From: Pelagomonas calceolata
Taxonomy: Eukaryota
Direction: 5' to 3'
Assembly (NCBI GenBank): GCA_918797485.1
Contig: CAKKNE010000001.1
Location: 2,852,001 to 2,916,000 of the forward strand
Length of the DNA: 64,000 bases
How positions within the stretch are numbered: the first letter of the stretch is position 1; the number at the start of each line of letters is the position of its first letter. The notes under the pieces are model-generated. The model was not told the DNA's origin. It ran no database searches and worked only from the letters and a program-made list of their open reading frames with translations. Below, piece after piece: positions 34,423-53,813 of the stretch. A program made the translations under genes and the position numbers.

Positions 34423-35628
34423 ACCCCGTGGGATGGGGTGGCGTCGTCGGGTGCACAGCCTCTCGCACGCGAGTTCCAGCTGCGCTCGTTAGTGCGCAGC
34501 AGCGACTGACTCTAGCGAACCACAGAGCGCCGCGCTGTCCGCCGCGCGCGCATTCTTCCTCTAAGGCGAGCCGCCGGAGCGAATCGCGAGCCGCCGGAGC
34601 GAATCGGCGCGATGGCGTGCGTGAACTCGTGCGAGTCGTGCGAGATCATCGCCGTCGGCGCCGTGGTCACGGTGAGAGAGAGGCAAGGCACTGGCAGTGG
34701 CGGCGTCGGCGTAGCACTTGGCGGCGCCCTGTGAAAGTCAAATTGTGTGTGTGCTCGAACGCAAATTGCACGCCGCGCGCGTGGCCGCGTGATTTTGGCC
34801 GGCGCAGGTCCGCGCTGTCAACCACGATGGGACGCTTTGCGTCAAGTACACGCTCGGCGGCACAGCACGCGCAGTCGCGAGCGCTGACTGCAGGCCCGGG
34901 AACCACGCGGGCGAGCACTATGAGAATAAGCTGACCAAGTGGCGCAAGCGCGTCGACGGCTTCTTTGGTTGTGACGAGAAGGAGGAGGACGGGGCCTTCG
35001 CGGCGCGGGTTGCTGTGCTCCGGTTGGACGACCTCATCGACAAGAAGAGCCCCGAGCAGGTAGAGAGCCAGTGCAGAAATGTTCATGGTACGTTCAAACT
35101 GGAGTGGGACCGACAGGACATAATCAATCGACTCGCTCTCAATCTCAAAGAGGAGCCACGGCTTGTGACCGGCATAACTTCAGGTGGAGTACGTACTCGA
35201 CAAGATGCTCCACGTGCCGCGGCCACCGGTCCAGGTCGCTTTCCTCCAGGGTGCGATTCCGCTTCAGGCCGGCGCCTGCTTCGACAAGCTAATTGACTTG
35301 CTTCAGGGGCCCACCGGCGGCGGTGACGGTGGCGGTCTGGCCATCGCGACCACGTGCCAAGGCCGCGGCTGCGCAAAGAAAAAGGAGGCCGCCGCCTGGC
35401 GGACAACGGGATCGTCGTGGCTTGGTCGGCGCATCATCCTAGAGCCCGCGTGCATCGGCGCCAAATTCTTGCATCCTTGCGGGGCGCTTTCGAAGTGCAA
35501 CCCTCCGTCGAAAAAGGTGCCGAAGAAAATCATTTGATGGTACGCTCAGGCGGACGGCGAAATTCCGTCCATGGCAACGGTCGACGGCTACCGGCCGCCC
35601 GCTGAGACACGTTTGCGCATCGAGCAGC

Positions 35629-38571
35629 ATGGACCCTACGTGCCAGACCGTGCGGACATCAAAGATACCTTCAAATTTCTTTGATAGGAGTCGCACCAAT
35701 CGTCGAGCATGTTGCCACTGCTCTCTCTCTCTCTCAGTCCCAAAAGAAGAGAATTGCGAAGACCTCGAGTTAAACTTATCTGATCAGTCAATATCTGGGC
35801 AGGTGCCTCTCTTCCGCGCGCGCTTCGACGATGCGGCGTTTGACGCGCGCACGGACCTGTACGAGGCAGACGTCGAGCACGCGGCGGCGGAGGCGCTCGC
35901 TGTCGAGGGCCTCACGTCAACCGCCGAGGCTGGAAAAAACGCGCTGGCGCCCAAGCGCGCAGCAGCGCGCATCTGGTCTATCAATCTAGGCGAGCTGATC
36001 TTCGCGCCGGCAGAGTTGGGGCGGCTCTGCGAATGCTTTGCGAACGCACGCTGCGGCGTGACGCATATCTTTCTGGAGTGCAACAACCTTAGTTGCGTAC
36101 CCTATGACCCAGGAGGACTGGGAAATGATTGCGTGCGCGAGCTGGCGCGCGCTGTTGCGGCGCGGAGGAGGGCAGACCGCTTGGATCTGCGGGGGGCGTG
36201 GAAGAATTTGATTCGTGATTTGGTCAGAACAAACCGCGCGAAGCACGACCTGTACCTTTTCTGTGATGGTGACACAGACTAGAACACTGTGGTGCGGCAG
36301 GCTGTCAAGAACTGGTTCAACCCCACTGGCCACTCTGTGAACAAGGTCTGGCTCGCACGGCAGAAGGGTGGCGGCGGCGCTGATACCGATGGGGCACTTA
36401 TGAAGGCTGTCGCGACGCGGCACCGCCGCACGGATGAAAAACGGGCATTACCAGGCGACCGCGTCCGCGTCCTCTGCGATGACGGTGCTTGGGCGCGCGG
36501 CGTCGTGGCGCTTGCCACGGCTGACGGCAGCGACGCGACGCCCCTCAGAGTGGCGTTGGATGCGTCGGCAACCACGATGCTGCCGGCCCAGCTCGACGCC
36601 GCGACGTTTGGCGTGGCCTGGCGCTGGGACGACGTGCCCGAGTGCGGTGACGTGCTTGAATACGATCTCACGCACCAGCCAGGCGTAGCAGCCGCGGGCC
36701 ACCACGTGCCGGCGCACCTCGTCGCACGTGACGGCCTCCGGCGCTGTGTCGTCGTCGGCGCACGCTACGGCGACACCGGCGAGTGGCGGACCTGCAGTTT
36801 TGTGGATGCGGGCGGCGCGTGCCGCGCACAGCATCGCGTATTGCGGCTGCCGCCGATCGACACACATGGCCTTACGCGGCCCGTCTGGCGCTTCCAGCAC
36901 GCAGCGGGTACGACAGGTGCGGCAGTGGTGGCGGCCTACGTCCGCGGCCGGGGTCGCGGCACTGCCTCGGCGGCCACGGCGCCGGCGGCCGTTGCGGGTT
37001 TGCGGGTCGTCTGCCGCATCAACGGCATCAACCGCACGGGTGTCGTCGAACACGTCGGCGCCACACGCCGTAGGTATGCACTCGAGGAGGCGGCAGCACC
37101 GCCTTGGGAGCTAGCGCCGGCGCCGAAGAAGGCACGGGCGTACAAGCAGCGCGGACCGTGCGACGCGCGTATAGGCGCGTGGATCGAGGTCTACTGGGCT
37201 GGCGATGACGATTGGTACCTAGGCCGCATCGCTGGCCAGCGGACGGTAGCCAGCGGTGGCGTCGAGTTCCAGGTCGCGTACGCCGACGGTGAGACGATCT
37301 ATCATGCGCTCCAAAACAAGCCGTTCGCGGGCGACAGCACGCCGCCGGCTGGGGCCAACGGCGACCCCGAGCAGTTCCGTTTTGCTGCCGCGCCGCCACC
37401 GTCGCCGTCGTCGCCGCCACGCGCACCACACGTGCACGCAACGCCGACAGACCCGACGCGGCTCAAAAAAGGCGACGTCATCGACGTCTTGCTTGCCGGC
37501 GCGGCGACGGCCACGCGCGTGAGGGTCGAGAGCAGCTACGTTGTCAAGGATGACGGCAACTGGAGAGCCGACAATGGCGATGCTGCGCCGCCTCGGCATG
37601 CACGCGATCCGACCGCTGCGCCAGCACTGTTACCGGCCGCTGCTGGGCGCCGCGAGCGCCGCAAGCCCAAGAAGTTCGCCGCTGACCTCTCGTCGACAGA
37701 ATATTCGCGCGCACTCCGACTCGCGGCCGAGAAACGTGCTTCCGCAGCGCGCGCCGCGATGCGTCACGACCTTTTGCTTGCCGACGGCCGCAAAATAGTA
37801 AAATGTCGCCTCGCACGCGTCGTCTGCGGCGAAGACACAAGCGGCGCATCGTGGACATTCGTCAGACACATGAGCAAACCCGCGAAGGCATTGAAACGGA
37901 AGCAGGCACCGGCCAAGAGACTGGCACAGGCCAAGAAGCCGGCGGCTGAGACCAAGCCGGCACCGCATGCACCTGCAGCGCCACTGCCGCTGCAAACCGG
38001 CGACCGGCCGCGCCGCGCTGCACTGCGCACTAAGCGGCCAACCGACGATTTGTCGTCGACTGAGCTTACGTGTCTTCTGCGTAAGGATGCGCGCACGAAG
38101 GCTGACACCTGCGACGTCCTGCTTGACCCGGCACACGGCCTCAAAGAGCGCAGCGTCCAGCTGCGACTCGGTCCGAAGGCCTTCCGCGACGGTTTGTGGC
38201 AGCCCGAGACATCCGTTGGAGCCGCCGCCGGTGGCAAGGCGCCGTTCGTGATGCAAACCGAGTCGTGGGAGGCTGCTGCCGAGGCGCGCAAGGGCAGCGC
38301 TGTGGCGACACGCGGGCGGCTCCTGGCCAAGTACAAGGGCATCGTCTTCCGCCACATAGACGCCACGCACGACGAAGTCCGCGTCGTCGATGACATCGTC
38401 AGCTCGCGCGACAACGACCGCTGGGAGGTCTCAACGAAGCTTGTCGGCGGCAACGGCGACGACGTCCCTGTGCCCTACGGCATTGGCCCGCTCATCGCCC
38501 TGGGCATGGTGGCCGCGGCGCCTACCTACCTGCAGACACGCGACATCGTCCTCGAGATATCCAAGAAGTGA
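35629..38571 (+). pseudogene. Large Tudor-like-domain protein interrupted by one in-frame TAG (36280-36282)
   Basis: ORFs 35629-36282 and 36289-38571 are in the same frame; IGAWIEVYWAGDDDWYLGRI...VAYADGE is Tudor-like. Confidence 0.55.
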
Positions 38572-39058
38572 GGCCTTTTATCTGCCCCCACTACTCCCCG
38601 CGCCGTTAGCCTCCCAGATAAAGCTAAATCGGGATATTCCACAGTCGTCCGCATTTACAGAACAATTTTTGGAGTCTATACATGGGCAATACCCCGCATT
38701 TACATTGCTACTACAATCATGCGCTAGGGCCGAGAATAATGATTTAGACTCCCTATCCATTGCGGCCCCAGCGCGCACCGCGGAGAGAGAGAGTTGCTTA
38801 GTAACGGGGGGGGGTTTCACCCCCCGCCGTTAGCTAAGTAACGCACTCTCTTCCTGCGGAGCTAACCCGTGATGGTCAAATCTTGAGCGGCTAGGTGGCC
38901 TAGCTCTAAGCAAAGCAATCGACGCGACTAGTAGGTTTACGTTATTGCAAGTTGGCTGGGACTCTAGTCCGGAATAGAGCGTCCACTCTACTGAGCTATT
39001 GGTTGAAGGAGGTCGCTCCTATTACGGTGGGAAGAAGGGGATTCGGTGGGAGCGGCAC

Positions 39059-41446
39059 TCACTCGCAGGCCACGCGTTTGGCCCTCTTGTTGTCGACGGT
39101 CGCTGACTCGGCCACGAACAGCTCCCGCTTCTGGGCGCGGCGCGCGGTGCGCCGCGCCAGCATCGTTGGTTCCGGCGGCGCGTCCTCCTCCCCCTCCTCC
39201 TCCCGCTCCGAGGACACGGCGTCGCGGTCGAGGTCGTAGCCGATCATGGCCGGGCACTTCACGACGCGCAGGAAGCCCTTCTTGTAGTTGTGCAGCACGT
39301 CGCTCTTGCTGCCGCCCAGCGCGATGACGTCCGCTCCGCACTTGGCCTTCTTGTAGGCCTCGTAGCGCGTGTAGCTCGCCGACTCCGGGCGATTCGGGTT
39401 CGCCTGGGCGAACGCGATCTCGAAGCACGCGTTGACGAGCAGCATCTCCGCGACGACTTTGGGCGCGGCGCCATCCAGCAGCCACCGCACGCTCTCGGCA
39501 TGTTCCTCCCCCTCGTTGCCCACGGCGGCTGCCGCGGGCGGAGTCTCCTCCTCGGGCGCGGACGCGGCTTGGGGAGGGGGCGCGGGCGCGTCGCCGACCG
39601 CCACGCGCACGTCGGCCGCAGCGACAGTGTTGAACACGTCGGGCTCGTCGACCCACTCGACGTCGTAGGTCCCGTCGTCGTTCACCCGGTCGATGACGGC
39701 GCGGGACCACTGCCAGCCCCACTTCGCCTCGACGCGCGCGCCGACCGCAAAGGCTGGCAGCGCCGCTGCATCCGCCGCGGTTGCCTCCTCGCGCGCGGGG
39801 GGCGTCTTTCTCTTGGGCGGCGTCGCGGGCGCGGCCGCCACCGCCACCGCCACCGCCGCAGCCTTCGCCTGCCGCCAACCCGGCGGCGGTTCTGCCGCCC
39901 GTTGTACGGGCTGCAGCATCGGCGGCGCCGCGCGCGGCGGCCCCAGAATTGTCGCGCGCATCAGGTCCAGTGCGGAGGGCCGCGGCAGGTTTGTGCTCTT
40001 GAACCGCTTTTTGGGGCCGCGCGGCGGTACCGGCCGCGGCGCCGGCGCCGGCCACCGCCGCGGGATCGTCGCCGCCCCGACCCGGGTCACCTTGAGCGCG
40101 TCCTTCTTCTTCTTTTTCGGCACCGTGCGTTGCCGCGGCGCGGGCGCGGGCGAGGGCGCCGGCGCGCGCCGCTGCGCGGACAGCGCGTCGTCGTCGTCGC
40201 CGATTGATGCCGCGAACGACGAGAAGTCGTCATCACTAATAACACGGCGCTTCTTTGGCAGCACGGCCTCGCTGAGCTCCGCTGCTTGGCGCGCCGCCTT
40301 GGCCTTGAGGCGTCTCCTGTGTTCTTCGATCCAGCCCTGGACCTCGTCGACGGCCGAGTACTCGCAATCATCAATAGTGCCCTTGTCGCCAAACTTCGCG
40401 TCATGGTAGAAACAGACCGGCTCATCGTGCTCGGCGTCGAAGCTGACCTTTAGGACGCGCCACCGCTCGCCGTCGTCGACAAATTCTACACCCTTGAGTT
40501 GGGTGTTCAGTCTCGCGATGAGTCTCTCGTCGTACTCAACGCCGTTTTCCGGGATTTCTGGGTGATCGGTTGCCTCGAAGGCTGCCGCGGCCATGAAGTC
40601 GTCGTTCTCTCTCTCAAATAGGTCGTCCGGCGCGACCGGTTGCTTGTCGTCGTCGTCGTTGCTCGCAGCGGGCGGCGCCGATGGCGCTGCGGGCGGCGCC
40701 GCCGCCGCGGGCGGCGCGGCGGCCTCGCTGAGGCTGGCGAACTTGGCCAGCTTCTTCTTCTTCTTCTTCTTCTTCTTCTTCTTCCTCTTGGGGTGCGCTG
40801 GCTCGGCCAGAACGGCAGCCGGCGGTAGTGCAGCTGGCGCAGGTACGTCGCCGACCACCGCGCGCACGTCGGCCGACGCGACAGTGTTGAACACGTCGGG
40901 CTCGTCGACCCACTCGACGTCGTAGGTCCCGTCGTCGTTCACCCGGTCGATGACGGCGCGGGACCACTGCCAGCCCCACTTCGCCTCGACGCGCGCGCCG
41001 ACCGCAAAGGCTGGCAGCGCCGCTGCATCCGCCGCGGTTGGCTCCTCGCGCGCGGGGGGCGTCTTTCTCTTGGGCGGCGTCGCGGGCGCGGCCGCCACCG
41101 CCGCCGCCGAAGCCGCAGCCTTTGCCTCCCTCTTGCGCGCCTTTTTCACCGCGGACTTTGACTTGATCTTCTTCTTGTGTTTGCCCGTCCTGGTCTTCTT
41201 CGGGGCGAGTTCCAGCACGCCGCCCAGTGACGACCTCGCGGAGTCCAAGACGGCCGCGGCCGCGCCCGCGACCGCGCCGCCCACCTTCTCGGCGAGCTCC
41301 TTAGTCGTTGACTGCATCTCCGCGAGGACGGCGTCCGGCGGCCCGTCGTCGGCCGTCATCACGCTCATCAGGCTCAGGCCTAAGAGACCGGCACCTACAG
41401 CCAGCGATGCTTTGCCGATCGTCAATCTCGTTCCTTTGACCGACAT
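39059..41446 (-). CDS. Protein with an N-terminal hydrophobic anchor, Lys-rich tracts, two Tudor/Agenet-like domains and a C-terminal NPxRP-RYE-YK domain
   Basis: FAVGARVEAKWGWQWSRAVIDRVNDDGTYDVEWVD occurs twice; likely start MSVKGTRL. Confidence 0.7.
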   Translation of the reverse strand: MSVKGTRLTIGKASLAVGAGLLGLSLMSVMTADDGPPDAVLAEMQSTTKELAEKVGGAVAGAAAAVLDSARSSLGGVLELAPKKTRTGKHKKKIKSKSAVKKARKREAKAAASAAAVAAAPATPPKRKTPPAREEPTAADAAALPAFAVGARVEAKWGWQWSRAVIDRVNDDGTYDVEWVDEPDVFNTVASADVRAVVGDVPAPAALPPAAVLAEPAHPKRKKKKKKKKKKKLAKFASLSEAAAPPAAAAPPAAPSAPPAASNDDDDKQPVAPDDLFERENDDFMAAAAFEATDHPEIPENGVEYDERLIARLNTQLKGVEFVDDGERWRVLKVSFDAEHDEPVCFYHDAKFGDKGTIDDCEYSAVDEVQGWIEEHRRRLKAKAARQAAELSEAVLPKKRRVISDDDFSSFAASIGDDDDALSAQRRAPAPSPAPAPRQRTVPKKKKKDALKVTRVGAATIPRRWPAPAPRPVPPRGPKKRFKSTNLPRPSALDLMRATILGPPRAAPPMLQPVQRAAEPPPGWRQAKAAAVAVAVAAAPATPPKRKTPPAREEATAADAAALPAFAVGARVEAKWGWQWSRAVIDRVNDDGTYDVEWVDEPDVFNTVAAADVRVAVGDAPAPPPQAASAPEEETPPAAAAVGNEGEEHAESVRWLLDGAAPKVVAEMLLVNACFEIAFAQANPNRPESASYTRYEAYKKAKCGADVIALGGSKSDVLHNYKKGFLRVVKCPAMIGYDLDRDAVSSEREEEGEEDAPPEPTMLARRTARRAQKRELFVAESATVDNKRAKRVACE

Positions 41447-41683
41447 GGGATGCCGCTCGAAGCCGTTTGATGTGGTGCTGAGAGCTGGGGCAGCCCGCGC
41501 GAAGTTCTGTCGCCTCTCTAAGCGCGCTCCCCAAAAGAGTAATTTGCGCGGCTCCATTTGAATGAATTAAAAAAAAAAAAATTCAAATTACTCTTTTGGG
41601 GAGCGCGCTTAGAGAGGCGACAGAACTTCGCGCGGGCTGCCCCAGCTCTCAGCACCACATCAAACGGCTTCGAGCGGCATCCC

Positions 41684-42577
41684 ATGTCGGTCAAAGGAAC
41701 GAGATTGACGATCGGCAAAGCATCGCTGGCTGTAGGTGCCGGTCTCTTAGGCCTGAGCCTGATGAGCGTGATGACGGCCGACGACGGGCCGCCGGACGCC
41801 GTCCTCGCGGAGATGCAGTCAACGACTAAGGAGCTCGCCGAGAAGGTGGGCGGCGCGGTCGCGGGAGCAGGCGCGGCCGTCTTGGACTCCGCGAGGTCGT
41901 CACTGGGCGGCGTGCTGGAACTCGCCCCGAAGAAGACTAGGATAGGCAAACACAAGAAGAAGATCAAGTCAAAGTCCGCGGTGAAAAAGGCGCGCAAGAG
42001 GGAGGCAAAGGCTGCGGCTTCGGCGGCGGCGGTGGCGGCCGCGGCCGCGACGCCGCCCAAGAGAAAGACGCCCCCCGCGCGCGAGGGGGAGGCCCCGCCC
42101 GCGGCGGCCGCCGTGGGCAACGAGGGGGAGGAACATGTCGAGAGCGTGCGGGGGCTGCTGGATGGCGCCGCGCCCAAAGTCGTCGCGGAGATGCTGCTCG
42201 TCAACGCGTGCTTCGAGATCGCGTTCGCCCAGGCGAACCCGAATCGCCCGGAGTCGGCGAGCTACACGCGCTACGAGGCCTACAAGAAGGCCAAGTGCGG
42301 AGCGGACGTCATCGCGCTGGGCGGCAGCAAGAGCGACGTGCTGCACAACTACAAGAAGGGCTTCCTGCGCGTCGTGAAGTGCCCGGCCATGATCGGCTAC
42401 GACCTCGACCGCGACGCCGTGTCCTCGGAGCGGGAGGAGGAGGGGGAGGAGGACGCGCCGCCGGAACCAACGATGCTGGCGCGGCGCACCGCGCGCCGCG
42501 CCCAGAAGCGGGAGCTGTTCGTGGCCGAGTCAGCGACCGTCGACAACAAGAGGGCCAAACGCGTGGCCTGCGAGTGA
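41684..42577 (+). CDS. Inverted, internally deleted paralog of 39059-41446 (Tudor domains lost, frame kept)
   Basis: Near-identical to the reverse complement of 41050-41546 and about 39025-39545. Confidence 0.7.
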   Translation: MSVKGTRLTIGKASLAVGAGLLGLSLMSVMTADDGPPDAVLAEMQSTTKELAEKVGGAVAGAGAAVLDSARSSLGGVLELAPKKTRIGKHKKKIKSKSAVKKARKREAKAAASAAAVAAAAATPPKRKTPPAREGEAPPAAAAVGNEGEEHVESVRGLLDGAAPKVVAEMLLVNACFEIAFAQANPNRPESASYTRYEAYKKAKCGADVIALGGSKSDVLHNYKKGFLRVVKCPAMIGYDLDRDAVSSEREEEGEEDAPPEPTMLARRTARRAQKRELFVAESATVDNKRAKRVACE

Positions 42578-42980
42578 GTGCCACTCCCACCGGGCGAATC
42601 CCCTTCTTCCCCACCGCCGACTGAAGTAATTCTAGAGTTACTTCAGTAAGACCCCCTACTACTAGGGTTACTTTGGATCATACTAGCGCGATATACTTAC
42701 CTCGCCTGGATCGAGCCATTAAGACCGTGGCGTTGTTGTTGGAAAGCGCGCCCGTCGACGTATATTAACCAGACTTAATTTCAGCAGAAGTCCAAAGTGA
42801 AACGTGAAATCATTTGATGATGTGGTTGTTTAAAATGCATTCGTGTGTGCGTGGTACCTCCACAATGACTCCCCTCAAGTGTTCCACGAATTCACTGCTA
42901 GTACTTCTGCTGGGTTCTTCCCGGAGCTTTTGGACGTCGAACATAGCGGCCAAGTAGCTCCAGCGGGAGGAAGTACTTAG

Positions 42981-44066
42981 TCACGATTCACCCACGACGG
43001 ATTGTAGTCTAGAATACGCTTCCGATCGAAGTTGTGCTATTATGGCGCGCTCGGACATGCGTATATGATCGTCGTCGAGCTCGCGTGTGCAGAAGTAGTC
43101 TGCGCGCGTATCGTCAGAGCACCAGGCGACGCGGACGCAGCCCCGGACCATGTCCACCGACGTCAGCTCTTGTTCGAAAGAGACTGCCTCGGCGAGCTCT
43201 CGCTCGTGATCGAAGGCTGGGTGGAGACCATCGAGGTCTGCCGTGGACAAAGGCGCGTCCTGGAGCTCAACGAGCATGGCCCGCGTATACATGTAGGTAA
43301 ACACCAACTTCAGATCGACGTCGGCGTTGGCGTTGGCATCATCTAAGGGTTCATCGTAGTACATTTCTTGGACCGCGACGACGTACTCGTCTAGGGTGAC
43401 CTCACCGTTTTCTTCACCGGCGACCACTCGAATTTTTGGCATTACGCAGCCGTCGGCGTCGTCGATGCCCATGCTGTCCAAAATGAAGGGCTCGAAACCG
43501 GGAACCGTCACGGTTGCCTTCCGACAGAAGATCCGTTTGAAGCCGCGCTCAACCGGAGGCAAAACAAAGCACGGGTGGACCGGCTCGGAGGTTTCGTCCT
43601 GGTCTTCCGTGGACCATGATAAAGCGTCCATTAAAGGCGCCTCGACGCCCATCGTCGTCCGCGTGCCGATACCGCCTATATGTAGAGATTGAGGTGGCCT
43701 CGTGGGCTCGGTCGTGGCGTCCGGCGCCTCGTCCTCCACCTGCGCCTCGACTGCCTTCTTTATCGTCGTCGTCGTCGTCGTCTTCTTCTTTTTCTTTTTC
43801 TTCTTCTTCTCAAGCACATGCTTCGCCATGGTCGTGGTTGACTCGGCTTTGGTTTTCGACTTGTATTTGCTCTTCTTGGCCTTTTTCGACTTGGGAGTGA
43901 GGCCCAGCATGCTCCCCAGCGATAGCCGTGCATTTTTGCCGGCATTTTCCCATGCATCGTCGCCGCTCATGCAGAGAATTGCGCCCAGGCACAACCCTGT
44001 TCCAGCCAAAGCCAATACGGCTTGGGCCTTAGACGGTCTGTTTTCTTTCATCGGGCGACTGGACAT
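42981..44066 (-). CDS. Protein with an N-terminal hydrophobic anchor, a Lys-rich tract and a C-terminal BAH-like domain
   Basis: YVVAVQEMYYD...LVFTYMYT...ERELAE...VDMVRGCVRV...DYFCTRELD follows the BAH motif order. Confidence 0.55.
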   Translation of the reverse strand: MSSRPMKENRPSKAQAVLALAGTGLCLGAILCMSGDDAWENAGKNARLSLGSMLGLTPKSKKAKKSKYKSKTKAESTTTMAKHVLEKKKKKKKKKTTTTTTIKKAVEAQVEDEAPDATTEPTRPPQSLHIGGIGTRTTMGVEAPLMDALSWSTEDQDETSEPVHPCFVLPPVERGFKRIFCRKATVTVPGFEPFILDSMGIDDADGCVMPKIRVVAGEENGEVTLDEYVVAVQEMYYDEPLDDANANADVDLKLVFTYMYTRAMLVELQDAPLSTADLDGLHPAFDHERELAEAVSFEQELTSVDMVRGCVRVAWCSDDTRADYFCTRELDDDHIRMSERAIIAQLRSEAYSRLQSVVGES

Positions 44067-44835
44067 GTCACTGCAGCCTGCGTGCGGAGAGAGCTGGACG
44101 AGCTGGGCTGCTTGGCGACAGCAACTCGGAAGCGCGAAGTTGGCTCGGACCTGTTGGGCTCCGCCGTCCCCGGACTCGTTTGAAACGCCGTGCGGGTTAT
44201 CTAGACCTACTAGGGTCGCTTATTACCCTTAGCTTAAAGTAGCTTTTACCGACACTAGCCCCTAGTAGGTTGTGCTTTGGAGGGCCGGTAGACCACCTTG
44301 CACCCACCCACACGGGCCACCCGGCTGGTGCTGGACGCGTCCAGACCCCTCAAGGCTCCCACCCAGCGGAGGGCCGTCCTGTGCCGGCTGTCGAGACGAA
44401 TGGAATTAAAAACATTAGCGCTCCAAAAAAGGCACTTGTAGCCCCCGCGATGACCGCGATCCGGTCACCCGCCGGCCAAGCCTGCTGGCGGACGTCTTGC
44501 GGGTCTTTTGAAGCCTCGGAATCGTAGGGTTGGTGGAGTAACATTCTCAATCTAAATTTGGCCGATTTGGGGCAAGACCCCCCCTAGCAGGTTCGGGCTT
44601 CAGGACGGCGCACTTCCGCACAAGGACGGATCCTTCCTGGGAGGGCTTCCCTACCGTTCGCCCCCGAGGTTTGCTAAAGTATTAAGTTCAAATCTGTGGA
44701 GCGCGGACTGCCCCAGCCCATAGAGGAGCGGCGCACTCGCAGCCGAGACCTCGCAAAGCGGCCACTCAGCCGAAACCCTCGCAGAAGCGGCTGCCCCAAC
44801 GTATAGCAGCGGCACACTCAGCCGAAACCCCCAAT

Positions 44836-45900
44836 ATGTCGAGCATCAGCAAGAACAAGTCGCTCAAGGCCGCGCTGGCCCTCGGCGGCGGCCTCGTGAC
44901 CGTCGGATTGATGGCTGCCATGATGAACGACGACGACGGACCGCCCGAGGACGTCGTCGACGGCGTGCAGTCGACGATGACCGGCCTCGTGGACAAGGCG
45001 GGCGGCGCGGTCGCGGCCATGGCCGCGTCCGTTGGCGACGCCGTCAAGGCGTCGCTCGGCGGCGTGCTGAAGAGCTCGGCGCCGCCAGCCGCGAAGAAGG
45101 CCAAGAAGAAGAAGACGGCGAAGACGAAGGCGGCGTCCAAGGCAAAGAAGGCGCGCAAAGCGGCGAAGGCTGCCAAAGCGGTGGCGGCGCCCGTGACGCC
45201 GCCGAAGGCGCCGCGCGCGGCGCCCACGCAGGAGGAGCCGGTCGTGGCGGCCGCGCCGCCGGCACCCGAGGCCGCGCCGCCCGCGGAGGCGCCCACGACG
45301 GCTCCGCCGGCCTTCGCGGTCGGCGCGCGCGTCGAGGCGCGGTGGGCCGGGACGTGGTACGGCGCCGTCGTCGATTCAACGCACGGGGACGGGAGCTACG
45401 AGCTCGAGTGGCTCGACGACCCCAACGTCTTCAACACCGTGGCGGCGGCCGACGTGCGCGCGGCGGCGGCCGACGAGCCCGCGCCGCCGCCGCCGCCGGA
45501 GGCCGAAGAGGAGGCGGCGGCCGCGCCCGAGGAGGAGGCGCCCGAGGCTGCGGCCGCGGCCGCGGCCGAGCAGCCCGCGGACGACGAGAGCTGCGAGGAG
45601 GCGGCCGACGTGCAGGGCCTGCTCGACGGCGCCGCGCAGCGCGTCATCGTCGACATGCTCCTCGCGAATGCGAGCCTTAAGATCGCGTTCGACCAGGAGA
45701 ACCCGAAGCGCCCGGACTCGGCGAGCTTCAAGCGCTACGAGGCCTACAAGGCGGCCACGTGCGGCGCCGACGTGCTGGCGTGGGGCGGTTCCAAGAGCGA
45801 CGTGCTCCACGACTACCGGAAGGGCTTCCTCCGCGTGACGCGCTGCCCGGTCATGGTCGCCTACGACCTCGACCGCGACGCAGACGTAGGGTTGAGTTAG
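44836..45900 (+). CDS. Anchor + Tudor + NPKRP-RYE-YK domain protein; diverged paralog of 39059-41446
   Basis: FAVGARVEARWAGTWYGAVVDSTHGDGSYELEWLD; IAFDQENPKRPDSASFKRYEAYK. Confidence 0.75.
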   Translation: MSSISKNKSLKAALALGGGLVTVGLMAAMMNDDDGPPEDVVDGVQSTMTGLVDKAGGAVAAMAASVGDAVKASLGGVLKSSAPPAAKKAKKKKTAKTKAASKAKKARKAAKAAKAVAAPVTPPKAPRAAPTQEEPVVAAAPPAPEAAPPAEAPTTAPPAFAVGARVEARWAGTWYGAVVDSTHGDGSYELEWLDDPNVFNTVAAADVRAAAADEPAPPPPPEAEEEAAAAPEEEAPEAAAAAAAEQPADDESCEEAADVQGLLDGAAQRVIVDMLLANASLKIAFDQENPKRPDSASFKRYEAYKAATCGADVLAWGGSKSDVLHDYRKGFLRVTRCPVMVAYDLDRDADVGLS

Positions 45901-45940
45901 GGTTGAGTTAAAACCGAGGGGCGGGGCCGAGGGCGCGGGC

Positions 45941-47400
45941 GTGGGCGCCGCGCCACCCGAGCGAGGATCCGTATGTCGCCAGGTCAGGCGCGAAATCGAC
46001 GGTCTCCCGCTCGTAGAACGCTCGCTTGTTGGCCGCTGCGCGCAGCCGCTTCGCCGCGGCTTGTATGCCGTCGCGGTGGGCGCGCAGCCGCTTCTTCTCC
46101 TTGCGGGCTGCCTTGCGTGCTTCGCGGTCCGGGGCTGCGTTGCTGATGAACTGGTGAGGACAGTTTTCACAACGCTGACGGGCCACGGGCACTTGCATTT
46201 TACATTTCGGGCACGTCTTCTTCGGGGTGCGGGCGGCCTTCTGGTTTCGTACTTCAACGTGGGTCAAATCTTGTAGAGTCATCATGAACACTATGTTTCA
46301 CAGATGTCCGCGCTACTCCGTGCGCTCCGTGCACTTGCGCCCTTTGCTGCTTGAAAATTTTCTAGACATTTTGGCGGCTCGCCGGCACCTCGCTGTTACA
46401 TACAGCAAATGTCGATCTCGACACCGTGCACGAATTGATCCCATGACACGTTGTCATTCTCCCTCGACGCCTATCCATCGAAGAGCTCCAAGACCGCGCC
46501 GCCGCTCACGCCCGACTGCTCGTGAGCCAATGAGCACTCGACGCGTCTTTCGTCCGCCGCATGCACTATTGGTTACGCGTGTGTCGCCGAACCAGAGCAA
46601 CGCAGCGCTCTTAATAGGTGCACGTGCCAAAAACTCGCAAGCCACGTCGGCTCGGCACCGGTCGCCAGGCGCGGCGCGCAGGCGGCGGCAGCGCCAAGCG
46701 CACGTTCCGCTTCCAACGTCCACAAACTCGCCAACGCAAAGTACGCCCGGCTTAAGCGCCCAGTTCTTGAGGACGCACCACCGCCGGGTGCGGCGCGGCA
46801 GCTTCTACGCCGCGGGCTTCTCGGGGATCAGGCGAGCACCGCTCGCGAGCGCCGCTACGCACGCCTTCGTCGCCGCTGCAGCGGGGCAGCGCGACGACGG
46901 CGCACGATGCCGCAGCGACCGCAGGTTTGACGGTTTTGACGTCGTCGTGCTCCGTCGCGGACGCCGCCGCAGCGCCGAGCTTTGACAGCGCGTGGCGCCA
47001 CGAGGCAGCAGATCGGGCGCAGACGGCGACGACTGCTCTTCTCTTGCGTAGCGTGTCGCAGTGGGTGCGCAGGGTGTACCAGCCGGAGCTCAGGAGGAAA
47101 ACCGATAGGTCGTTGTCGTCACCTGCTACTGCTATATGCATCCTACACGTATGCGAATCGCGTCCTCATGCTGCGCGCTGCGCGTGCGAGGTGCACGGGA
47201 TGAAGTGCGGCTGGTGTGCGTGCGACATGAGATGGTGCGGGTTAGTGTCGGCGGCAGTTTCGCGGCAAGGTGGGCTCGGATGGTTTTGAAAAGGTGCTCA
47301 TCGGAACGCGGGGAGCGAGAGAAACGTTTTTACGGGGACGGGAAGGGCGAGCGGCGAAGAACAGCGTTCTGACGAGCGGCGCAAAACAGCTTAAATGCTA
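45941..47400 (-). repeat. Palindrome-family repeat, copy A (about 1.46 kb; lacks the palindrome; contains truncated Zn-ribbon ORF 45908-46291)
   Basis: Direct repeat of 51797-53265. Confidence 0.9.
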
Positions 47401-47546
47401 CCGCGAGCTCGGCTCCGGCCCGCCGGTCCGCGTAGTGCATCGAGCCTCGCAGCGTTTTCTCACGTCGCACGCACTCCAAGCGGCTCGCCGACCCCTCCGC
47501 GACGGGGCCGCCACGGCTCTAGTAATCATAGTTTTGGATCATAGTC

Positions 47547-47939
47547 TTAAACGCGGGCAGCCTCCGTCGCGGCGGCCCCGGGCGGCCGTGCGGGCGCCGG
47601 CGAGGCGTCGGCCCGGATGCGGTCGACAGGCACGTCGGCCTCGCAATCACCGGTGTCAAAGGTCACGGTGTACTTGCGAACGCGCCGCGTTTTATTGGCC
47701 TGGGCCTGGCAGGCGACCTTATACGCGGACCCCCGGTCGTAACGTTTCGCCATGACCTGCACCTCATTGACGGCCGTGACGATCCCCGGCGACCACGCGG
47801 CGCCGAAGAGGGTGTCTTCCATCTCGCCCGTGTGCGGGTTGCGGAACCGCCTGACGTGCTGGAGCTTGACCGCCGCGACGCGGTTGCCGACCTTGAAGAA
47901 CTCCTGCGGCGGCGCCGGCTGCGACGATGAGCAGCCCAT
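47547..47939 (-). CDS. Small Tudor-like protein with an N-terminal acylation motif (MGCSSS)
   Basis: FKVGNRVAA...WSPGIVTAVN...YTVTFDTGDCEADVPVDRIR. Confidence 0.55.
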   Translation of the reverse strand: MGCSSSQPAPPQEFFKVGNRVAAVKLQHVRRFRNPHTGEMEDTLFGAAWSPGIVTAVNEVQVMAKRYDRGSAYKVACQAQANKTRRVRKYTVTFDTGDCEADVPVDRIRADASPAPARPPGAAATEAARV

Positions 47940-48355
47940 GATGCGACAGATCGGTGATCCACCACAGGCTGCCTTCCCAGAACCAGACCAAGGAGTTGCA
48001 AGGAGTTACCCCCACCACACTTTCATCAGTAGCAGCCCTTTGAGCACACAACTGGACGCAGCCTTGCCAAGCTGGCTGCCCACGGCTTCCCTACTCTGGC
48101 CAGACTCCGCGCGCGGCCGGTCTGGCTGATCCTGCTAGGCATCCCTAGTGTCTTTCTGCCGCTAACCCTATTATTTGTCACCCCCCCCAGGGGCTCCGCC
48201 CACTAGTTCTAGCACCGCGAGCTGGACCTTATAAGGTCCAGCTCGACAGATATAAAAAATCGAGTCGGTCAGGGTTAGGGTTAAATATCCACCAGGAAAT
48301 TACGTGAAGATGCCAAGGACGCGGTTTCCCCTTCATTCTTTTCGTGAGGTTGAGT

Positions 48356-49918
48356 CTAGCCGGGGGCAATTTTTTGGGCGGCACGCGCCGCTCCGATCAT
48401 GTCACGGTTCAGGTAGCACGAAACCAACGAGCGGACACGGAACCAGCCGGGATCATCACTTTCGTACCACGGCTCTGTTGCGCAGTGCGGCGCCGAAGGA
48501 TTAAACAAGAGTATGTCGCCCTGACGCAGCGAGACGTAGATTCCCTCGGGTCCACTGGCAGGAAAATAGAAACCGCTTCCACGCACGTTTTGGCCGTGTG
48601 CCCGGGACTGAGCACGTGCGCGCTTACGGGGCGGTCTCACCGTCTCGTCATTCGAACCCCACGCGCAAGCGACCATAAACGCAAGACCAGGATCATCGTC
48701 AACATGTGCTAAAATGGCACCGAGATCCAACCAGACGGCCGCCAGTAAGGGTACACTGGGGGCTTCCGTCCTGCCTTCGCCGAGCCAATCCTGCATGTTG
48801 AAGGCCAGCTTCGCCATTTCGTGCGGCAAAAGCTGGGCATAGAGGTAGGGTCGAGCTTCCTGGTATATTTTCTCCAAGGTGCATCGTAGCTCCTCGTTGA
48901 GGCGTGCGCGCCGCGCCGACGGCGCTGCTGGCTCGTAAAACAAATTCCTGACTGATGTTTTCCGGTCAAGGTGGGGTGGTGCGCGGTACCCGCTGTGCCA
49001 CGCCCGCTTGTAAACTCTGCTACGTGCCTTGGATTGTGCTTGCTTGGAACCGCTGAACTCGTCCACCTCATCAGCGGTCTCACTCGCGATGGCCGCGAGA
49101 ATGCGCGCTAGGTCGACGGAGGGTTTGGCGAACGGTCGAAACTCGCTGTTTAGCTTGCCACGGACTACGACGAAGTCGAGCTCGGCATCTGGTGTCGGCC
49201 CGGCGCAAATCGCATCAGCGCCCCGCCTGAAGTGTGAGTTTTTCGGGATGGGCCTGAGGGTCGTCTTTGTATAATCTTCCGGCCAGGTTACGCGTAAGCG
49301 CGTAATGTCGGCGAGGATGCGAAGGCGCATCGGAAACTTTTTTGCATTGAGCATGTGTCGCAACTCAGGATCACGGTCAAGAAGCGGACGCAAAATCTCC
49401 TCGCACTTTGCCGTAGTAACGCAGAGCGACGGTGGCGAACAACCTTTGCAAGCAAATTTGCAGACGGCCGCTGCAGCAGCCTTGTCTAGCGCGTGCTCGA
49501 GGTGCTCCCGCACCTCGGGGCGCGCCATGTCCGGCGCGGTGGTCCAAAAATTACCAGTGTGGCCTCGTTGTCCCGTCCTGCCGTTTGCATCGATTCGCAG
49601 CTGCGAGCCCGCATGATTCCCCCCCACGCTGCTCCTGCTCGGCAGGTGGCATGCTCCCTTGAGCCGCGCTAGCTGATCCTCTCGCGCACGCTCCCCAAAC
49701 AGCGAGCCGTCGCGTACGACTGCGGCAACGATTTGCGCCCAGGCGAGGGCAAATTTCTTCCCATCACCTAGTTTTCTCCGCTCGAGATGCTCCTGCGCGC
49801 GCAGATCCTCCAGTGTTGCGGCCGCATCATGGAAACCACTCCGACGTAGCACCTCGAGAAGATCTCCCTGCAGTGTTCTCTTGTCACAGGGCAGCTTTGC
49901 GTCGTCGGAAGATGCCAT
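48356..49918 (-). CDS. 2OG-Fe(II) dioxygenase, TET/JBP-like
   Basis: AHVDDD (HxD), GSGFYFP, LRQGDILLFNPSAPHCAT (distal His) and RVRSLVSCY, in the order typical of the TET/JBP double-stranded beta-helix. Confidence 0.7.
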   Translation of the reverse strand: MASSDDAKLPCDKRTLQGDLLEVLRRSGFHDAAATLEDLRAQEHLERRKLGDGKKFALAWAQIVAAVVRDGSLFGERAREDQLARLKGACHLPSRSSVGGNHAGSQLRIDANGRTGQRGHTGNFWTTAPDMARPEVREHLEHALDKAAAAAVCKFACKGCSPPSLCVTTAKCEEILRPLLDRDPELRHMLNAKKFPMRLRILADITRLRVTWPEDYTKTTLRPIPKNSHFRRGADAICAGPTPDAELDFVVVRGKLNSEFRPFAKPSVDLARILAAIASETADEVDEFSGSKQAQSKARSRVYKRAWHSGYRAPPHLDRKTSVRNLFYEPAAPSARRARLNEELRCTLEKIYQEARPYLYAQLLPHEMAKLAFNMQDWLGEGRTEAPSVPLLAAVWLDLGAILAHVDDDPGLAFMVACAWGSNDETVRPPRKRARAQSRAHGQNVRGSGFYFPASGPEGIYVSLRQGDILLFNPSAPHCATEPWYESDDPGWFRVRSLVSCYLNRDMIGAARAAQKIAPG

Positions 49919-50839
49919 CCGAGGCGAGTCCGCCGCAGTGGATAGGGAGGGCGGCAGTAAGCCGCGGATGCTTGCCGAGGCGCCCTCCTGGGGCAGCCTG
50001 GGTGCAGGCAGGGCGCAAATTGCTCTGCCTCAAGGGAAAGAGGGAAAGCCCAAGCTGGGGCACAGCTAAAGATCAATACTTACGTACCGAGCTCCGGAGC
50101 CTTTGCGCCGGAAGCTTCTAGTTCTACGCAGCCCTAAGCCTCGCCCGGGCCGGGGGCTGCGGTGTACACTAATGTACCGCATGCGGTACATTAGTGAAAC
50201 TTCAACTTGAGTTCATTGTAAAAAAAAAATCTAGATAATTAGAAACATGTCTGAATCATCTTCATCCTTGCGACTTATGGAACAACTTTACAAGAGCGAT
50301 GAGGAACGCTGCTCAATTTGGCAAAGTCACAAATCCAAGTCGAAGCTGCCCACGGAGAAGGCCGAGTAGCCCTTTCGCTCGACGATGCGCTGGAGGTCCT
50401 CGATGGAGTGCTCCTCGCGCCAGTTGTGGATGATTTCGACGTCGCCTTGATAGGCCATGTCAATGTCCTCGTGCGCCGACCAAATTGATTTAACAATTCT
50501 ACTTGAAAAATTCCAGGAACAAACAATCTGTATTCATAGCCATTTTTTTGGGTTAGCGACCATCGAAGCGGGCTTTGGTGGCCTCGACCAATTCAACGCA
50601 TCGCTCAAGGGCGTCGTGGCGGATCTGCTAAAGCGCGCCGCGGACACGCCACGCGGCGGGCCATCGTTCTCCGTGCGGTCGTCGACGAGTAATTTGTGAT
50701 CTGTGGTACTCGCCCTTAATCAAACCCAGTAGTGCACGGGTTTTACATAGAGGGGAATTACTCCGATTTATAACCAACCCCCAAATAGAACCACGACCAG
50801 CACTGCGACGCCATGACCGCCTGCTGACGAACAACCCAG

Positions 50840-52147
50840 TCACTTCAGAAAACCGGACAGCGTGGACTGAACAAGCGCGCTAGCGCGCGCCGCCATTCCG
50901 CGAGGTCGTGCATCGGGAGCGACCGGGGGCGTTTCTTCGTCTTTCATCCAGAAGACGAGGTAAATCGTATTCATGGCTTCGTGCACGCCGTTTCCAGCAG
51001 CCTTCAATGTATTTGTGAAGCCCTCGTATTTGAGCCTCTTGACGTATGCTTGCAAATCCGTCTCGATTTTCTGTGCAGTACCCTTGCCCTCGACTTGAAA
51101 AAGGGCGAACATGCGTTTCTTGGTTCCGTTGCTCGGATCTTTCTGGCCCAAGCGGACGAACGGAGCTTGCTTCGTCACGCCGATGTCGATGTCGTACCCA
51201 AGCCTCAAGAAGCATTGAATGACGCGAATCGACCAGTCTTGGTAGAGCCTAATAGCCTCTTCCTTCCTTGGATGCGTCTTGTAGACAGAATTTTTAATTG
51301 GATCCAACTTCCACGGTCCGCTCTTTGCGACCTCCTTCTCGCTCCCCCAGCTGTGCTCGTGGAGATCTGGTTCGTCACCTCCTCCCTCGATCAGCAATGC
51401 CAGCTCATTTATCACCACGCACGACCCACGACTTAACCGCTGCGACCGCTTCTTCCACATAGCGACCTCTTGCCTCAGAGACCGCTGCATCTCCTGGTAC
51501 TTGGCGCGCTCACGCGCGGCGGCTACCTCCAAAGCGGGAGCAGGCGGATACAGCGTGGGAGCAGGTGCCTCCGGCGCGACATCAATCTGCATGGGCGCCT
51601 CCGGCGCGACGGCTGGCGCATCCGGCAAGGCGACCGGCACATCCGGCGCGACATCCATCGGCATGGGCGCCTCTGGCGCAGACGCAGGCGTCTCCGGCAC
51701 TGCGGCCAAAACTGTCGGTTCGAAAACGGTTGGCTCCGCCGGCGCGACATCTAGCGCCTCGCGCGCAAGCGCCATCCCTTCCGTCGGAGCGGCCACGTGG
51801 GCGCCGCGGCACTCGTGCGAGGATCCGTGCGTCGCCAGATCAGGCGCGAAATCGACGGTCTCCCGCGCGTTGGCCGCTCGCTCGTTGGCCGCTGCGCGCA
51901 GCCGCTTCGCCGCGGCTTGTATGCCGTCGCGGTGGGCGCGCAGCCGCTTCTTCTCCTTGCGGGCTGCCTTGCGTGCTTCGCGGTCCGGGGCTGCGTTGCT
52001 GATGAACTGGTGAGGACAGTTTTCACAACGCTGACGGGCCACGGGCACTTGCATTTTACATTTCGGGCACGTCTTCTTCGGGGTGCGGGCGGCCTTCTGG
52101 TTTCGTACTTCAACGTGGGTCAAATCTTGTAGAGTCATCATGAACAC
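50840..52147 (-). CDS. Zn-ribbon + Pro/Ala repeats + coiled coil + GIY-YIG-like nuclease domain
   Basis: CPKC-x10-CENC; YDIDIGVTKQAPFVRLGQ...AQKIETDLQ...GFTN. Confidence 0.5.
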   Translation of the reverse strand: MFMMTLQDLTHVEVRNQKAARTPKKTCPKCKMQVPVARQRCENCPHQFISNAAPDREARKAARKEKKRLRAHRDGIQAAAKRLRAAANERAANARETVDFAPDLATHGSSHECRGAHVAAPTEGMALAREALDVAPAEPTVFEPTVLAAVPETPASAPEAPMPMDVAPDVPVALPDAPAVAPEAPMQIDVAPEAPAPTLYPPAPALEVAAARERAKYQEMQRSLRQEVAMWKKRSQRLSRGSCVVINELALLIEGGGDEPDLHEHSWGSEKEVAKSGPWKLDPIKNSVYKTHPRKEEAIRLYQDWSIRVIQCFLRLGYDIDIGVTKQAPFVRLGQKDPSNGTKKRMFALFQVEGKGTAQKIETDLQAYVKRLKYEGFTNTLKAAGNGVHEAMNTIYLVFWMKDEETPPVAPDARPRGMAARASALVQSTLSGFLK

Positions 52148-53320
52148 TATGTTTCACAGATGTCCGCGCTACTCCGTGCGCTCCGTGCACTTGCGCCCTT
52201 TGCTGCTTGAAAATTTTCTAGACATTTTGGCGGCTCGCCGGCACCTCGCTGTTACATACAGCAAATGTCGATCTCGACACCGTGCACGAATTGATCCCAT
52301 GACACGTTGTCATTCTCCCTCGACGCCTATCCATCGAAGAGCTCCAAGACCGCGCCGCCGCCCACGCCCGACTGCTCGTGAGCCAATGAGCACTCGACGC
52401 GTCTTTCGTCCGCCGCATGCACGGGCGTGTTGATTAGGCGTGTGTCACCGAACCAGAGCAACGCAGCGCCCTTGATAGGTGCACGTGCCAAAAACTTGCA
52501 AGCCGCGTCGGCTCGGCATCGGTCGCCAGGCGCGGCGCGCAGGCGGCGGCAGCGCCAAGCGCACATCCCGCTTCCAACGTCCACAAGCTCGCCGACGCGA
52601 AGTACGCCCGGCTTAAGCGCCCAGTTCTTGAGGACGCACCACCGCCGGGTGCGGCGCGGCAGCTCCTCCTACGCCGCGGGCTTCTCGGGGATCAGGTGCA
52701 CGTCGCTCGCGAGCGCCGCTACGCACGCCTTCGTCGCCGCTGCAGCGGGGCAGCGCGACGACGGCGCACGATGCCGCAGCGACCGCAGGTTTGACGGTTT
52801 TGACGTCGTCGTGCTCCGTCGCGGACGCCGCCGCAGCGCCGAGCTTTGACAGCGCGCGGCGCCACGAGGCAGCAGATCGGGCGCAAACGGCCACGACTGC
52901 TCTTCTCGACTTGCGTAGCGTGTCGCAGTGGGTGCGCAGGGTGTACCAGCCGGAGCTCAGGAGGGAAACCGATAGGTCGTTGTCGTCGCCTGCTACTGCT
53001 GTATGCATCCCACACTTGTGCGAATCGCGTCCTCATGCTGCGCGCTGCGCGTGCGAGGTGCACGGGATGAAGTGCGGCTGGCGTGCGCGCGTGTCAGCGC
53101 TCTGCACAGAGATCGGCGGCAGTTTCGCGGCAGCATCGGCTCGGATGGTTTTGGAAAGGTGCTCATCGGAACGCGGGGAGCGAGAGAAACGTTTTTAGAC
53201 GGGCGGAAAGGGCGAGCGGCGAAGAACAGCGTTCTGACGAGCGGCGCAAAACAGCTTAAATGCTAGTGGCGCAAAACTCACTAGGGCCTGTGTGCCCCGT
53301 ACCGTTAACGGTACGGGGCA
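51797..53320 (-). repeat. Palindrome-headed repeat, copy B (most complete; leads into the 435-aa ORF)
   Basis: 28-bp palindrome at 53293-53320; shared with copies A, C, D and E. Confidence 0.9.
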
Positions 53321-53794: not shown

Positions 53795-53813
53795 GGACCG
53801 TTTCGGACCCGCT

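What the first reader, a model, noticed from the sequence alone, without database searches (positions are those of the whole stretch)
35629..52147. Island concentrating chromatin readers with a putative DNA modifier and nuclease
Seen: within about 17 kb there are four Tudor-like genes, one BAH-like gene, a TET/JBP-like enzyme and a Zn-ribbon/GIY-YIG-like protein. They appear intronless, and there is no housekeeping gene between RPL35 and the LHC gene. Inference: cargo of a large mobile or selfish element that reads and rewrites chromatin marks (for example anti-silencing), located at the edge of the low-GC block.
Basis: inference. Interest (0 to 1): 0.75.

Follow-up and report, generated by a model that had tools for sequence, protein, structure and literature searches.

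The report
Palindrome-capped nuclease element beside algal centromere
This stretch beside a likely centromere of a marine alga is not one big mobile element but a patchwork of duplicated host genes with likely chromatin roles, plus a small gene for a predicted DNA-cutting enzyme that sits at many different places in wild populations, is capped by a 28-base palindrome, matches no transposon class tested here, and has a piece in a giant-virus contig.

Summary
The window matches Pelagomonas calceolata chromosome 1 at the edge of the low-GC centromere block. The island exists, but it is not one cargo element. Three 'Tudor genes' are one family made by local inverted duplication (one copy has no Tudor). 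The first gene has four introns. The Tudor family and the BAH-like gene have relatives on other chromosomes, and the TET-like gene lies next to the nuclease at only 1 of 23 informative loci. Domain calls: Tudor and a permuted GIY-YIG are supported, TET/JBP rests on motifs and Atlas, BAH is unconfirmed. What is mobile is smaller: a ~3-kb unit with the Zn-ribbon/GIY-YIG gene, found with 27 different downstream junctions in 44 metagenome loci and under purifying selection. One end is fixed at the outer edge of a perfect 28-bp palindrome; the other end varies. Several unrelated repeat families share that 28-bp cap. No RT, Rep or transposase was found with it. A giant-virus contig carries the nuclease domain at 87% nucleotide identity. 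Most likely the palindrome-capped elements copy themselves and neighbouring DNA into new sites and built the island; the enzyme responsible is not shown.

The parts
32409..33285 (+). Internally deleted copy of the nuclease element: 28-bp palindrome (32409-32436), shared module, leader, 86 bp of the Zn-ribbon coding region
33579..33983 (+). 134-aa ORF, PDZ-like by eye only (no Pfam hit); covered by an RNA contig
34060..34140 (-). 81-bp exact inverted copy of the 5' end of the 354-aa gene
34226..34424 (+). Fragment of the palindrome module with clipped palindrome
34612..38571 (+). Five-exon gene, 1158 codons, with Tudor/SH3-like barrels and an LRR-like part (both by eye); introns 34714-34807, 35060-35183, 35448-35549, 35640-35802; stop at 36280 present in the window and run X1, sense (C) in X3, X4, X15, X17
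39059..41557 (-). 832-aa protein: hydrophobic leader, Lys-rich stretch, Tudor, middle domain, second Tudor, small C-terminal domain of no known family
39025..42616 (.). Inverted duplication (96-98% identical arms, 36-bp loop near 41565) giving two divergent genes
41684..42577 (+). 297-aa copy of the same family lacking the Tudor domain; cluster of 103 members
42620..42647 (.). 28-bp palindrome with one mismatch, 3 bp from the end of the inverted duplication; same family abuts the nuclease gene in L008/L059
42981..44066 (-). 361-aa chimera: hydrophobic/Lys-rich leader plus BAH-like domain 54% identical to the C-terminus of host protein P0133
44836..45900 (+). 354-aa single-Tudor member of the family; paralog P0005 on another chromosome
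45908..47400 (-). Truncated copy of the nuclease element (125-aa Zn-ribbon ORF, no nuclease domain, no palindrome), ending in telomere-like repeats
47547..47939 (-). 130-aa protein with weak Tudor_5 match; present in MMETSP
48218..48245 (.). Perfect 28-bp palindrome of a further repeat family
48356..49918 (-). 520-aa likely TET/JBP-type 2OG-Fe(II) dioxygenase (HxD...H...R); only 3 close clusters found; present in MMETSP
50168..50195 (.). Perfect 28-bp palindrome capping a second repeat family
50339..53320 (-). Longest copy of the mobile nuclease element: fixed palindromic end 53293-53320, ~210-bp shared module, leader, gene, and a 3' tail holding a host-gene fragment; other copies stop at variable points in this tail
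50840..52141 (-). 433-aa protein: CxxC-CxxC Zn ribbon (25-42), Pro/Ala linker, circularly permuted GIY-YIG-like domain (D319-G321-T323, R330, E360, N377, TIY 392-394 invariant)
53582..53944 (+). 363-bp non-coding module: 28-bp palindrome, shared 210 bp, TTAGGG-like repeats, variably truncated far end

Best explanation
The interval is a patchwork of duplicated host genes at the edge of a likely centromere, interleaved with palindrome-capped repeats, one of which carries a predicted GIY-YIG nuclease and is found at many genomic sites; these elements likely built the island by copying themselves and neighbouring DNA into new sites. Shown: the nuclease unit has many different flanks, one end fixed at the outer edge of a 28-bp palindrome, a variable other end, no evident target preference, and purifying selection; the other genes do not travel with it. 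Inferred mechanism I commit to: the element-encoded nuclease likely makes a break at or next to the palindrome (which would extrude as a 14-bp-arm cruciform, so unrelated families of the same length could all be used), and host repair synthesis would copy from that fixed end for a variable distance and join by template switching, which would give truncated copies, inverted duplications, chimeric genes and captured fragments. Low recombination next to the centromere would let the products persist. The Tudor, BAH-like and TET-like genes are likely host-derived passengers that are now expressed; a role in local chromatin is possible but untested.
For: Mobility: 66 loci; 27 junction classes among 44 loci, 26 unlike the window; flanks hold unrelated host genes. 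Fixed end: 13 of 13 pattern-matched copies end at the palindrome edge, first outside base G5/C4/T3/A1; second family 9 of 9; 5 perfect 28-bp palindromes in 32-54 kb, 1 elsewhere in the window, 0 in 100 shuffles; at least six unrelated sequences share the 28-bp length. Module points palindrome-outward in 24 of 31 cases next to the gene. pN 0.022-0.042 versus pS 0.11-0.17 in the 14 diverged algal copies. Fold matches to giant-virus GIY-YIG proteins; weak match to I-TevI residues 9-93 (Z 3.2). Palindromes abut rearrangement ends in the window and in loci. Host origin of passengers. Centromere: published Hi-C.
Against: No activity is shown for the nuclease; the second Tyr of the GIY-YIG motif is Asp in all 8 aligned sequences, so it may be weak or only bind DNA. 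No PDB fold match reached significance. Some copies have clipped or decayed palindromes (L003, L008, L012, window 34226) and were not in the 13. Loci come from short-read metagenome contigs of several lineages (88-100% identity), so some junctions may be misassemblies or duplicates. An RT or Rep acting in trans was not excluded: the whole genome was not available and the published table was cut before its end. No clean empty site was seen. Arm covariation is only borderline (Fisher p=0.052).
Confidence: 0.5

Rival explanations
1. The palindrome-capped units are non-autonomous Penelope-like retroelements moved in trans by an RT not seen here; the palindrome comes from self-priming, the variable end is 5' truncation, and host genes are copied with introns.
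For: GIY-YIG partner, variable truncation, inverted flanking copies, palindromes at junctions and intron-keeping host-gene mobilisation are described for PLEs (passages of PMC3846280; PMC8557442; PMC6431247). TTAGGG-like repeats lie in the module. Chlamys PLEs are listed for Ectocarpus.
Against: No RT in 40 flank ORFs scanned; only 3 RT rows in the held part of the gene table, one being telomerase; no hammerhead by Rfam, one bare core match that does not close the stems by eye; nuclease is permuted and stands alone; no TSD seen by eye.
Confidence: 0.22
2. They are non-autonomous rolling-circle elements (Helitron-, Replitron- or IS91-like) moved by an HUH Rep in trans; the palindrome is the origin or terminator and the nuclease is cargo.
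For: Terminal hairpin, no evident TSD, one-ended read-through and gene-fragment capture are typical of HUH elements; Replitrons are reported in Pelagophyceae (passages of PMC10288648; PMC6431247). A CTAG lies 9 bp inside the palindrome.
Against: No target dinucleotide at the fixed end; homology continues past the CTAG; no direct terminal repeats; 0 rows for PF14214 or 'helitron' in the held table.
Confidence: 0.15
3. One reading: the whole 17 kb is cargo of one large selfish element that reads and rewrites chromatin marks.
For: Several chromatin-type domains cluster here (3 of 10 genes would be rare against 131 Tudor-barrel rows in about 14,600, p about 1e-4 if independent and equally detectable). 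TET-carrying transposons are known in fungi (PMC12730594). L012 also links the nuclease unit to the 3' end of the first gene, with different DNA between.
Against: TET linked at 1 of 23 loci; no recurrence of Tudor/BAH elsewhere; no transposase, TIR or TSD around the block; introns; host-like GC; only one Tudor family is recognised in the published table.
Confidence: 0.06
4. The cluster is a host-selected pericentromeric chromatin module (membrane-anchored readers plus a DNA modifier), and the repeats are bystanders.
For: Three proteins plus the BAH-like one start with a hydrophobic segment (KD 1.7-2.1) followed by a Lys-rich stretch; TET-like and first gene are at single-copy depth in all DNA runs; genes are expressed.
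Against: BAH-like gene and the 832-aa middle are at about half depth in X4 and X12; many structural variants exist; leader similarity of the BAH-like protein is marginal (79 and 15 of 2000 shuffles); a nonsense allele is tolerated.
Confidence: 0.07

Closest known systems
Penelope-like elements, including Terminons (PMC3846280, PMC8557442, PMC6431247; passages read)
   Same: GIY-YIG nuclease, truncation at one end, inverted flanking copies, palindromes, telomeric-type repeats, host-gene capture
   Different: No RT found; nuclease is free-standing and circularly permuted; fixed end is an exact 28-bp palindrome in unrelated families; no hammerhead or TSD found
Helitrons, Replitrons, IS91-type HUH elements (PMC10288648, PMC6431247; passages read)
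   Same: Terminal palindrome, no evident TSD, one fixed and one variable end, gene-fragment capture
   Different: No Rep or helicase found; no target dinucleotide; no TC...CTRR ends; no direct terminal repeats
TET/JBP-carrying DNA transposons of fungi (KDZ and others; PMC12730594; passages read)
   Same: A TET/JBP-type gene near mobile DNA and a centromere
   Different: TET-like gene here is single-copy, not inside TIR/TSD boundaries, no DDE transposase beside it, does not travel with the nuclease
Unclassified P. calceolata low-GC-region repeats R_13, R_25, R_80 (PMC9481584 Supplementary Note 4)
   Same: Repeats over 500 bp in or at low-GC regions with no homology to known elements
Giant-virus GIY-YIG proteins (Klosneuvirus A0A1V0SLJ9, Yasminevirus A0A5K0U8Q9, CroV E3T5U1)
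   Same: Best fold matches to the nuclease domain
   Different: 16-18% identity; here in a host nuclear repeat with an N-terminal Zn ribbon

Membership tests
Penelope-like element | PLE-clade reverse transcriptase in the element or a partner | tested here: inconclusive
   None in the unit or in 40 flank ORFs; 3 RT rows in a cut table; whole genome not held
Penelope-like element | GIY-YIG endonuclease fused to RT, canonical motif order | tested here: not met
   Stand-alone gene; GIY-like strand (TIY) is C-terminal
Penelope-like element | Hammerhead ribozyme in terminal repeats (absent in Naiad/Chlamys) | tested here: not met
   No Rfam hammerhead at E<=1 in 31-56 kb; one bare core match only
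Penelope-like element | Truncated copies in tandem or inverted arrangement | tested here: met
   Variable far ends and palindrome-outward modules in 24 of 31 cases
Helitron / HUH rolling-circle element | Rep (HUH) with or without helicase | tested here: inconclusive
   None in unit or scanned flanks; 0 PF14214 rows in cut table; divergent Reps would be missed
Helitron / HUH rolling-circle element | Terminal hairpin followed by CTRR, insertion at AT or TT | tested here: not met
   Element ends at the palindrome itself; outside base varies
Replitron | Short direct terminal repeats and HUQ Rep | tested here: inconclusive
   Far end is not fixed, so no terminal repeat could be defined; Rep not searched genome-wide
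TET-carrying DDE transposon (KDZ and others) | TET/JBP gene inside TIR/TSD boundaries with a DDE transposase, in multiple copies | tested here: not met
   No TIR around it, single-copy depth, 1 of 23 linkage
GIY-YIG nuclease superfamily | Three-stranded sheet with conserved Arg, Glu, Asn and Tyr | tested here: met
   R330, E360, N377, Y394 invariant in 8 sequences; model pLDDT 75; BFVD GIY-YIG matches. Residue roles are recalled; PDB match weak
GIY-YIG nuclease superfamily | DNA cleavage | not testable with these tools
   Needs biochemistry
TET/JBP dioxygenase | HxD...H iron triad and C-terminal Arg strand in a double-stranded beta-helix | tested here: inconclusive
   Motifs present and kept in P0128; Atlas Tet_JBP lead; no HMM or structure support
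Tudor domain | Profile match to solved Tudor domains | tested here: met
   PHF20 Tudor E=0.0014-0.008 for the 832/354 family; weak for 130 aa; not tested by profile for the 1158-codon gene's first exons
BAH domain | Profile or fold match to BAH | tested here: inconclusive
   No Pfam or PDB hit; not folded; motif likeness recalled

The most novel reading that the evidence does not exclude
Pelagomonas carries an undescribed class of eukaryotic mobile DNA with no RT, Rep or DDE enzyme: a circularly permuted GIY-YIG nuclease recognises any 28-bp terminal palindrome by shape, and host break repair copies the element from that end. The same machinery mobilises several unrelated non-coding families, shuffles host chromatin genes into a pericentromeric nursery, and has passed its nuclease to a giant virus.
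Probability: 0.22. Interest if true: 0.85.

Novelty: new variant of a known kind. Interest (0 to 1): 0.58.

Why it matters
P. calceolata is among the most abundant open-ocean eukaryotes, and two genome papers leave its repeats mostly unclassified. This locus gives one of those repeats an anatomy: an exact 28-bp palindromic end, a variable far end and a selected nuclease gene. That makes the mechanism testable in culture and in vitro. If the nuclease alone drives movement through host repair, it would be a new route of transposition. The viral copy is a recent, traceable host-to-giant-virus transfer candidate. The island also shows how new chromatin-type genes may arise beside a gene-rich centromere.

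Tried and rejected
Whole-genome search: no genome held. TET-like protein: single-sequence AlphaFold unusable, pLDDT 37; no relatives in viral contigs, GTDB genomes, phages or PDB. Nuclease: no hits in IMG/VR contigs, phages, PDB sequences, Foldseek PDB; VIA best Z 4.6 to unrelated folds, so absence of a PDB match says nothing. Palindromes: 0 matches in viral contigs. RPL35/L29 row Pca_2p15320 was not syntenic and was dropped. L003 as donor locus: rejected, its identity falls to 85% in the last 80 bp and the ORF there looks chimeric. A shared SH3-like domain between the 832-aa middle and the first gene's C-terminus: not supported (359 of 3000 shuffles; E=2.7). Assembly artefact for the inverted duplication: unlikely, the Tudor-less form has 103 cluster members. 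Read depth was used only as a hint (contig depths, summed): nuclease 228 versus 33-38 in X4, 87 versus about 17 in X12, about 1x in X3 and X5. Earlier scan notes: 3 look-ups, nothing. Literature searches without a description of this element; subscription papers, bioRxiv supplements, figure-only pages and the cut end of the gene table were not seen and may bear on novelty.
Full report
Setting. The window is a pelagophyte nuclear sequence. Homologues are named Pelagomonas calceolata, and the gene order SAM synthetase, Mo25, Rab18, cyclic-nucleotide channel, cytochrome b5, [interval], LHC, RRM, PDZ, RPB4, PP2C equals Pca_1p15450-15720 in the supplementary table of PMC9481584 (table searched by term and cut before its end). 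That paper (passages, section 6, supplement 2 text) reports one low-GC trough per chromosome, supports these as centromeres by Hi-C, and notes three repeats in them with no homology to known elements. The preprint 10.1101/2024.10.30.620910 (passages) calls the species' repeats mostly unclassified. In the window most 1-kb bins up to 31 kb have GC 0.43-0.52, with local peaks; the island is at 0.53-0.74 with GC3 0.64-0.94, which is host-like.

The genes. Self-BLAST shows that the 832- and 297-aa genes are arms of one inverted duplication (96-98%), and the 354-aa gene is a 70-77% paralog. The 297-aa copy lacks the Tudor. A profile of this family hits PHF20 Tudor at E=0.0014; the aligned W, Y, W and D match the aromatic cage as I recall it, not from a call. 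A third row with the same best hit, Pca_3p19240, lies among ordinary genes on chromosome 3; that it is P0005 is inferred. The family's C-terminal 100 residues have no named family. The 361-aa protein joins a similar hydrophobic leader (marginal significance) to a domain 54% identical to the C-terminus of P0133, a TFIIS-N protein on another chromosome; BAH is a recalled motif likeness, with no Pfam or PDB support. The 520-aa protein has HxD...H...R, kept in the 69%-identical P0128, and an Atlas lead to Tet_JBP on 16% of a viral cluster; nothing stronger was obtained. The first two ORFs are one five-exon gene: run X18, one of three RNA runs laid, shows four joints with GT/GC-AG ends, and they give a 1158-codon frame with one stop that four other runs read as sense. 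Tudor-type barrels are common in this genome: 131 rows in the held table. Three independent lineages in ten genes would still be unusual, but only one lineage is detected at the table's threshold.

The nuclease. A search of 1.84 billion representatives gave 23 hits, about 20 of them real relatives, all short-contig environmental sequences. Invariant residues are G315, D319, G321, T323, P327, R330, E360, N377, AG.G and TIY 392-394. The model (pLDDT 75) matches giant-virus proteins, two of the top three named GIY-YIG. PDB searches gave nothing significant; I-TevI appears at Z 3.2 over residues 9-93, which leaves out its first strand as I recall it, as expected if that strand has moved to the C-terminus. 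I read this as a circularly permuted GIY-YIG with an N-terminal Zn ribbon (Pfam UPF0547 E=4e-4, below cut-off).

Mobility. One metagenome scan gave 66 loci. Of 45 that reach the stop codon, 44 have 25 or more flanking bases and fall into 27 junction classes between window positions 50339 and 50847, one being the window's own. Flanks hold unrelated host genes: ankyrin, TPR, kinase, mTERF, Piwi-like, histone H1 and others (40 ORFs scanned, chosen by length and composition). The TET-like gene follows in 1 of 23 loci with at least 1300 bases past the stop; Tudor and BAH genes appear in 2 loci that are the window's locus. In the 14 diverged algal copies pN is 0.022-0.042 and pS 0.11-0.17. The window holds the longest version plus two broken copies.

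The ends. The element's upstream end and a 363-bp non-coding module share about 210 bp and end in a perfect 28-bp palindrome. All 13 copies that matched my pattern end exactly at its outer edge, with no base preference outside; the far end is cut at many points. Copies with clipped palindromes exist and were not counted (L003, L008, L012, window 34226). A second, unrelated family behaves the same in 9 of 9 copies, and at least four more sequences have the same length. The interval has 5 perfect 28-mers against 0 in 100 shuffles. Palindromes directly abut the end of the inverted duplication (42620) and several nuclease junctions. Next to the gene the module faces palindrome-outward in 24 of 31 cases, not all independent. 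No target-site duplication was evident by eye.

Viral copy. L029, an 11.4-kb contig of 21-39% GC outside two islands, with an NCLDV major capsid, HNH and DUF285 genes, has 593 bp that are 87% identical to window 51477-50897, fused in frame to a low-GC N-terminus. Differences from the window run 39 GC-to-AT against 16 AT-to-GC, and its best match among the loci is 88.9%. This fits a real transfer from alga to virus followed by drift; it is one contig and no second case was found.

Mechanism. Shown: fixed palindromic end, variable far end, many sites, selection on the nuclease, rearrangements at palindromes. Inferred: a constant length with no shared sequence suggests recognition by shape, and a GIY-YIG nuclease could cut an extruded cruciform (structure-selective cutting by SLX1 is established knowledge; abstracts seen). 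Host repair copying from that end would explain truncation, template switches and chimeric genes. PLE-type retrotransposition and HUH rolling-circle movement explain much of the same anatomy (passages), and neither enzyme could be excluded without the genome. Membership tests fail or stay open for each known class.

Verdict. The chromatin-type genes are host-derived duplicates beside a centromere; the mobile part is a small palindrome-capped nuclease element that I did not find described. Interest 0.58; 0.85 if the nuclease-only mechanism holds (probability about 0.22).

Noticed in passing
L029:7003-8160: Giant-virus contig with the algal nuclease domain fused in frame to a viral-looking N-terminus, 87% nucleotide identity, AT-biased differences
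   Followed up: partly
L012:11635-16897: 5-kb low-GC segment between the nuclease unit and the 3' end of the window's first gene; holds a broken DDE-integrase-like frame (by eye) whose C-terminal part resembles the 832-aa middle domain (12 of 3000 shuffles) and ends at another 28-bp palindrome
   Followed up: partly
window 36280: Nonsense allele in the 1158-codon gene, present in the window and run X1, absent in X3, X4, X15, X17
   Followed up: yes
window 39873-40743 and 42553-43752: About half the contig depth of neighbours in metagenomes X4 and X12, hinting at presence/absence variation; single-Tudor 376-aa and 369-aa forms are common in the protein clusters
   Followed up: partly
window 44836-45100, 41684-41950, 43800-44066; P0048: Shared N-terminal hydrophobic segment plus Lys-rich stretch in front of different reader-like domains; could be a membrane anchor with a nuclear signal
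   Followed up: partly
window 45583-45891: Small conserved domain with nearest Atlas clusters in ciliates and phages, no Pfam family
   Followed up: partly
window 55952-56139, 57342-57482, 61453-61656, 62718-62844: Introner-type repeated introns in LHC, RRM and PP2C genes, as described for this species
   Followed up: no
window 60844-61185: 342-bp near-perfect palindrome (95%) between RPB4 and PP2C
   Followed up: no
window 21371-21476; L007:3091-3574: Shared repeat; the L007 ORF looks like the C-terminus of a non-LTR retrotransposon by recalled motif, no Pfam hit
   Followed up: no
window 50339-50700 and 53340-53580: Host-gene fragments (a short repeated domain; a coiled-coil piece) caught beside or between palindrome modules
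   Followed up: partly
L051:918-3083, L061:729-2954: Piwi-domain genes directly downstream of nuclease copies at two loci; CoiA-like genes at L045 and, by eye, L063
   Followed up: no
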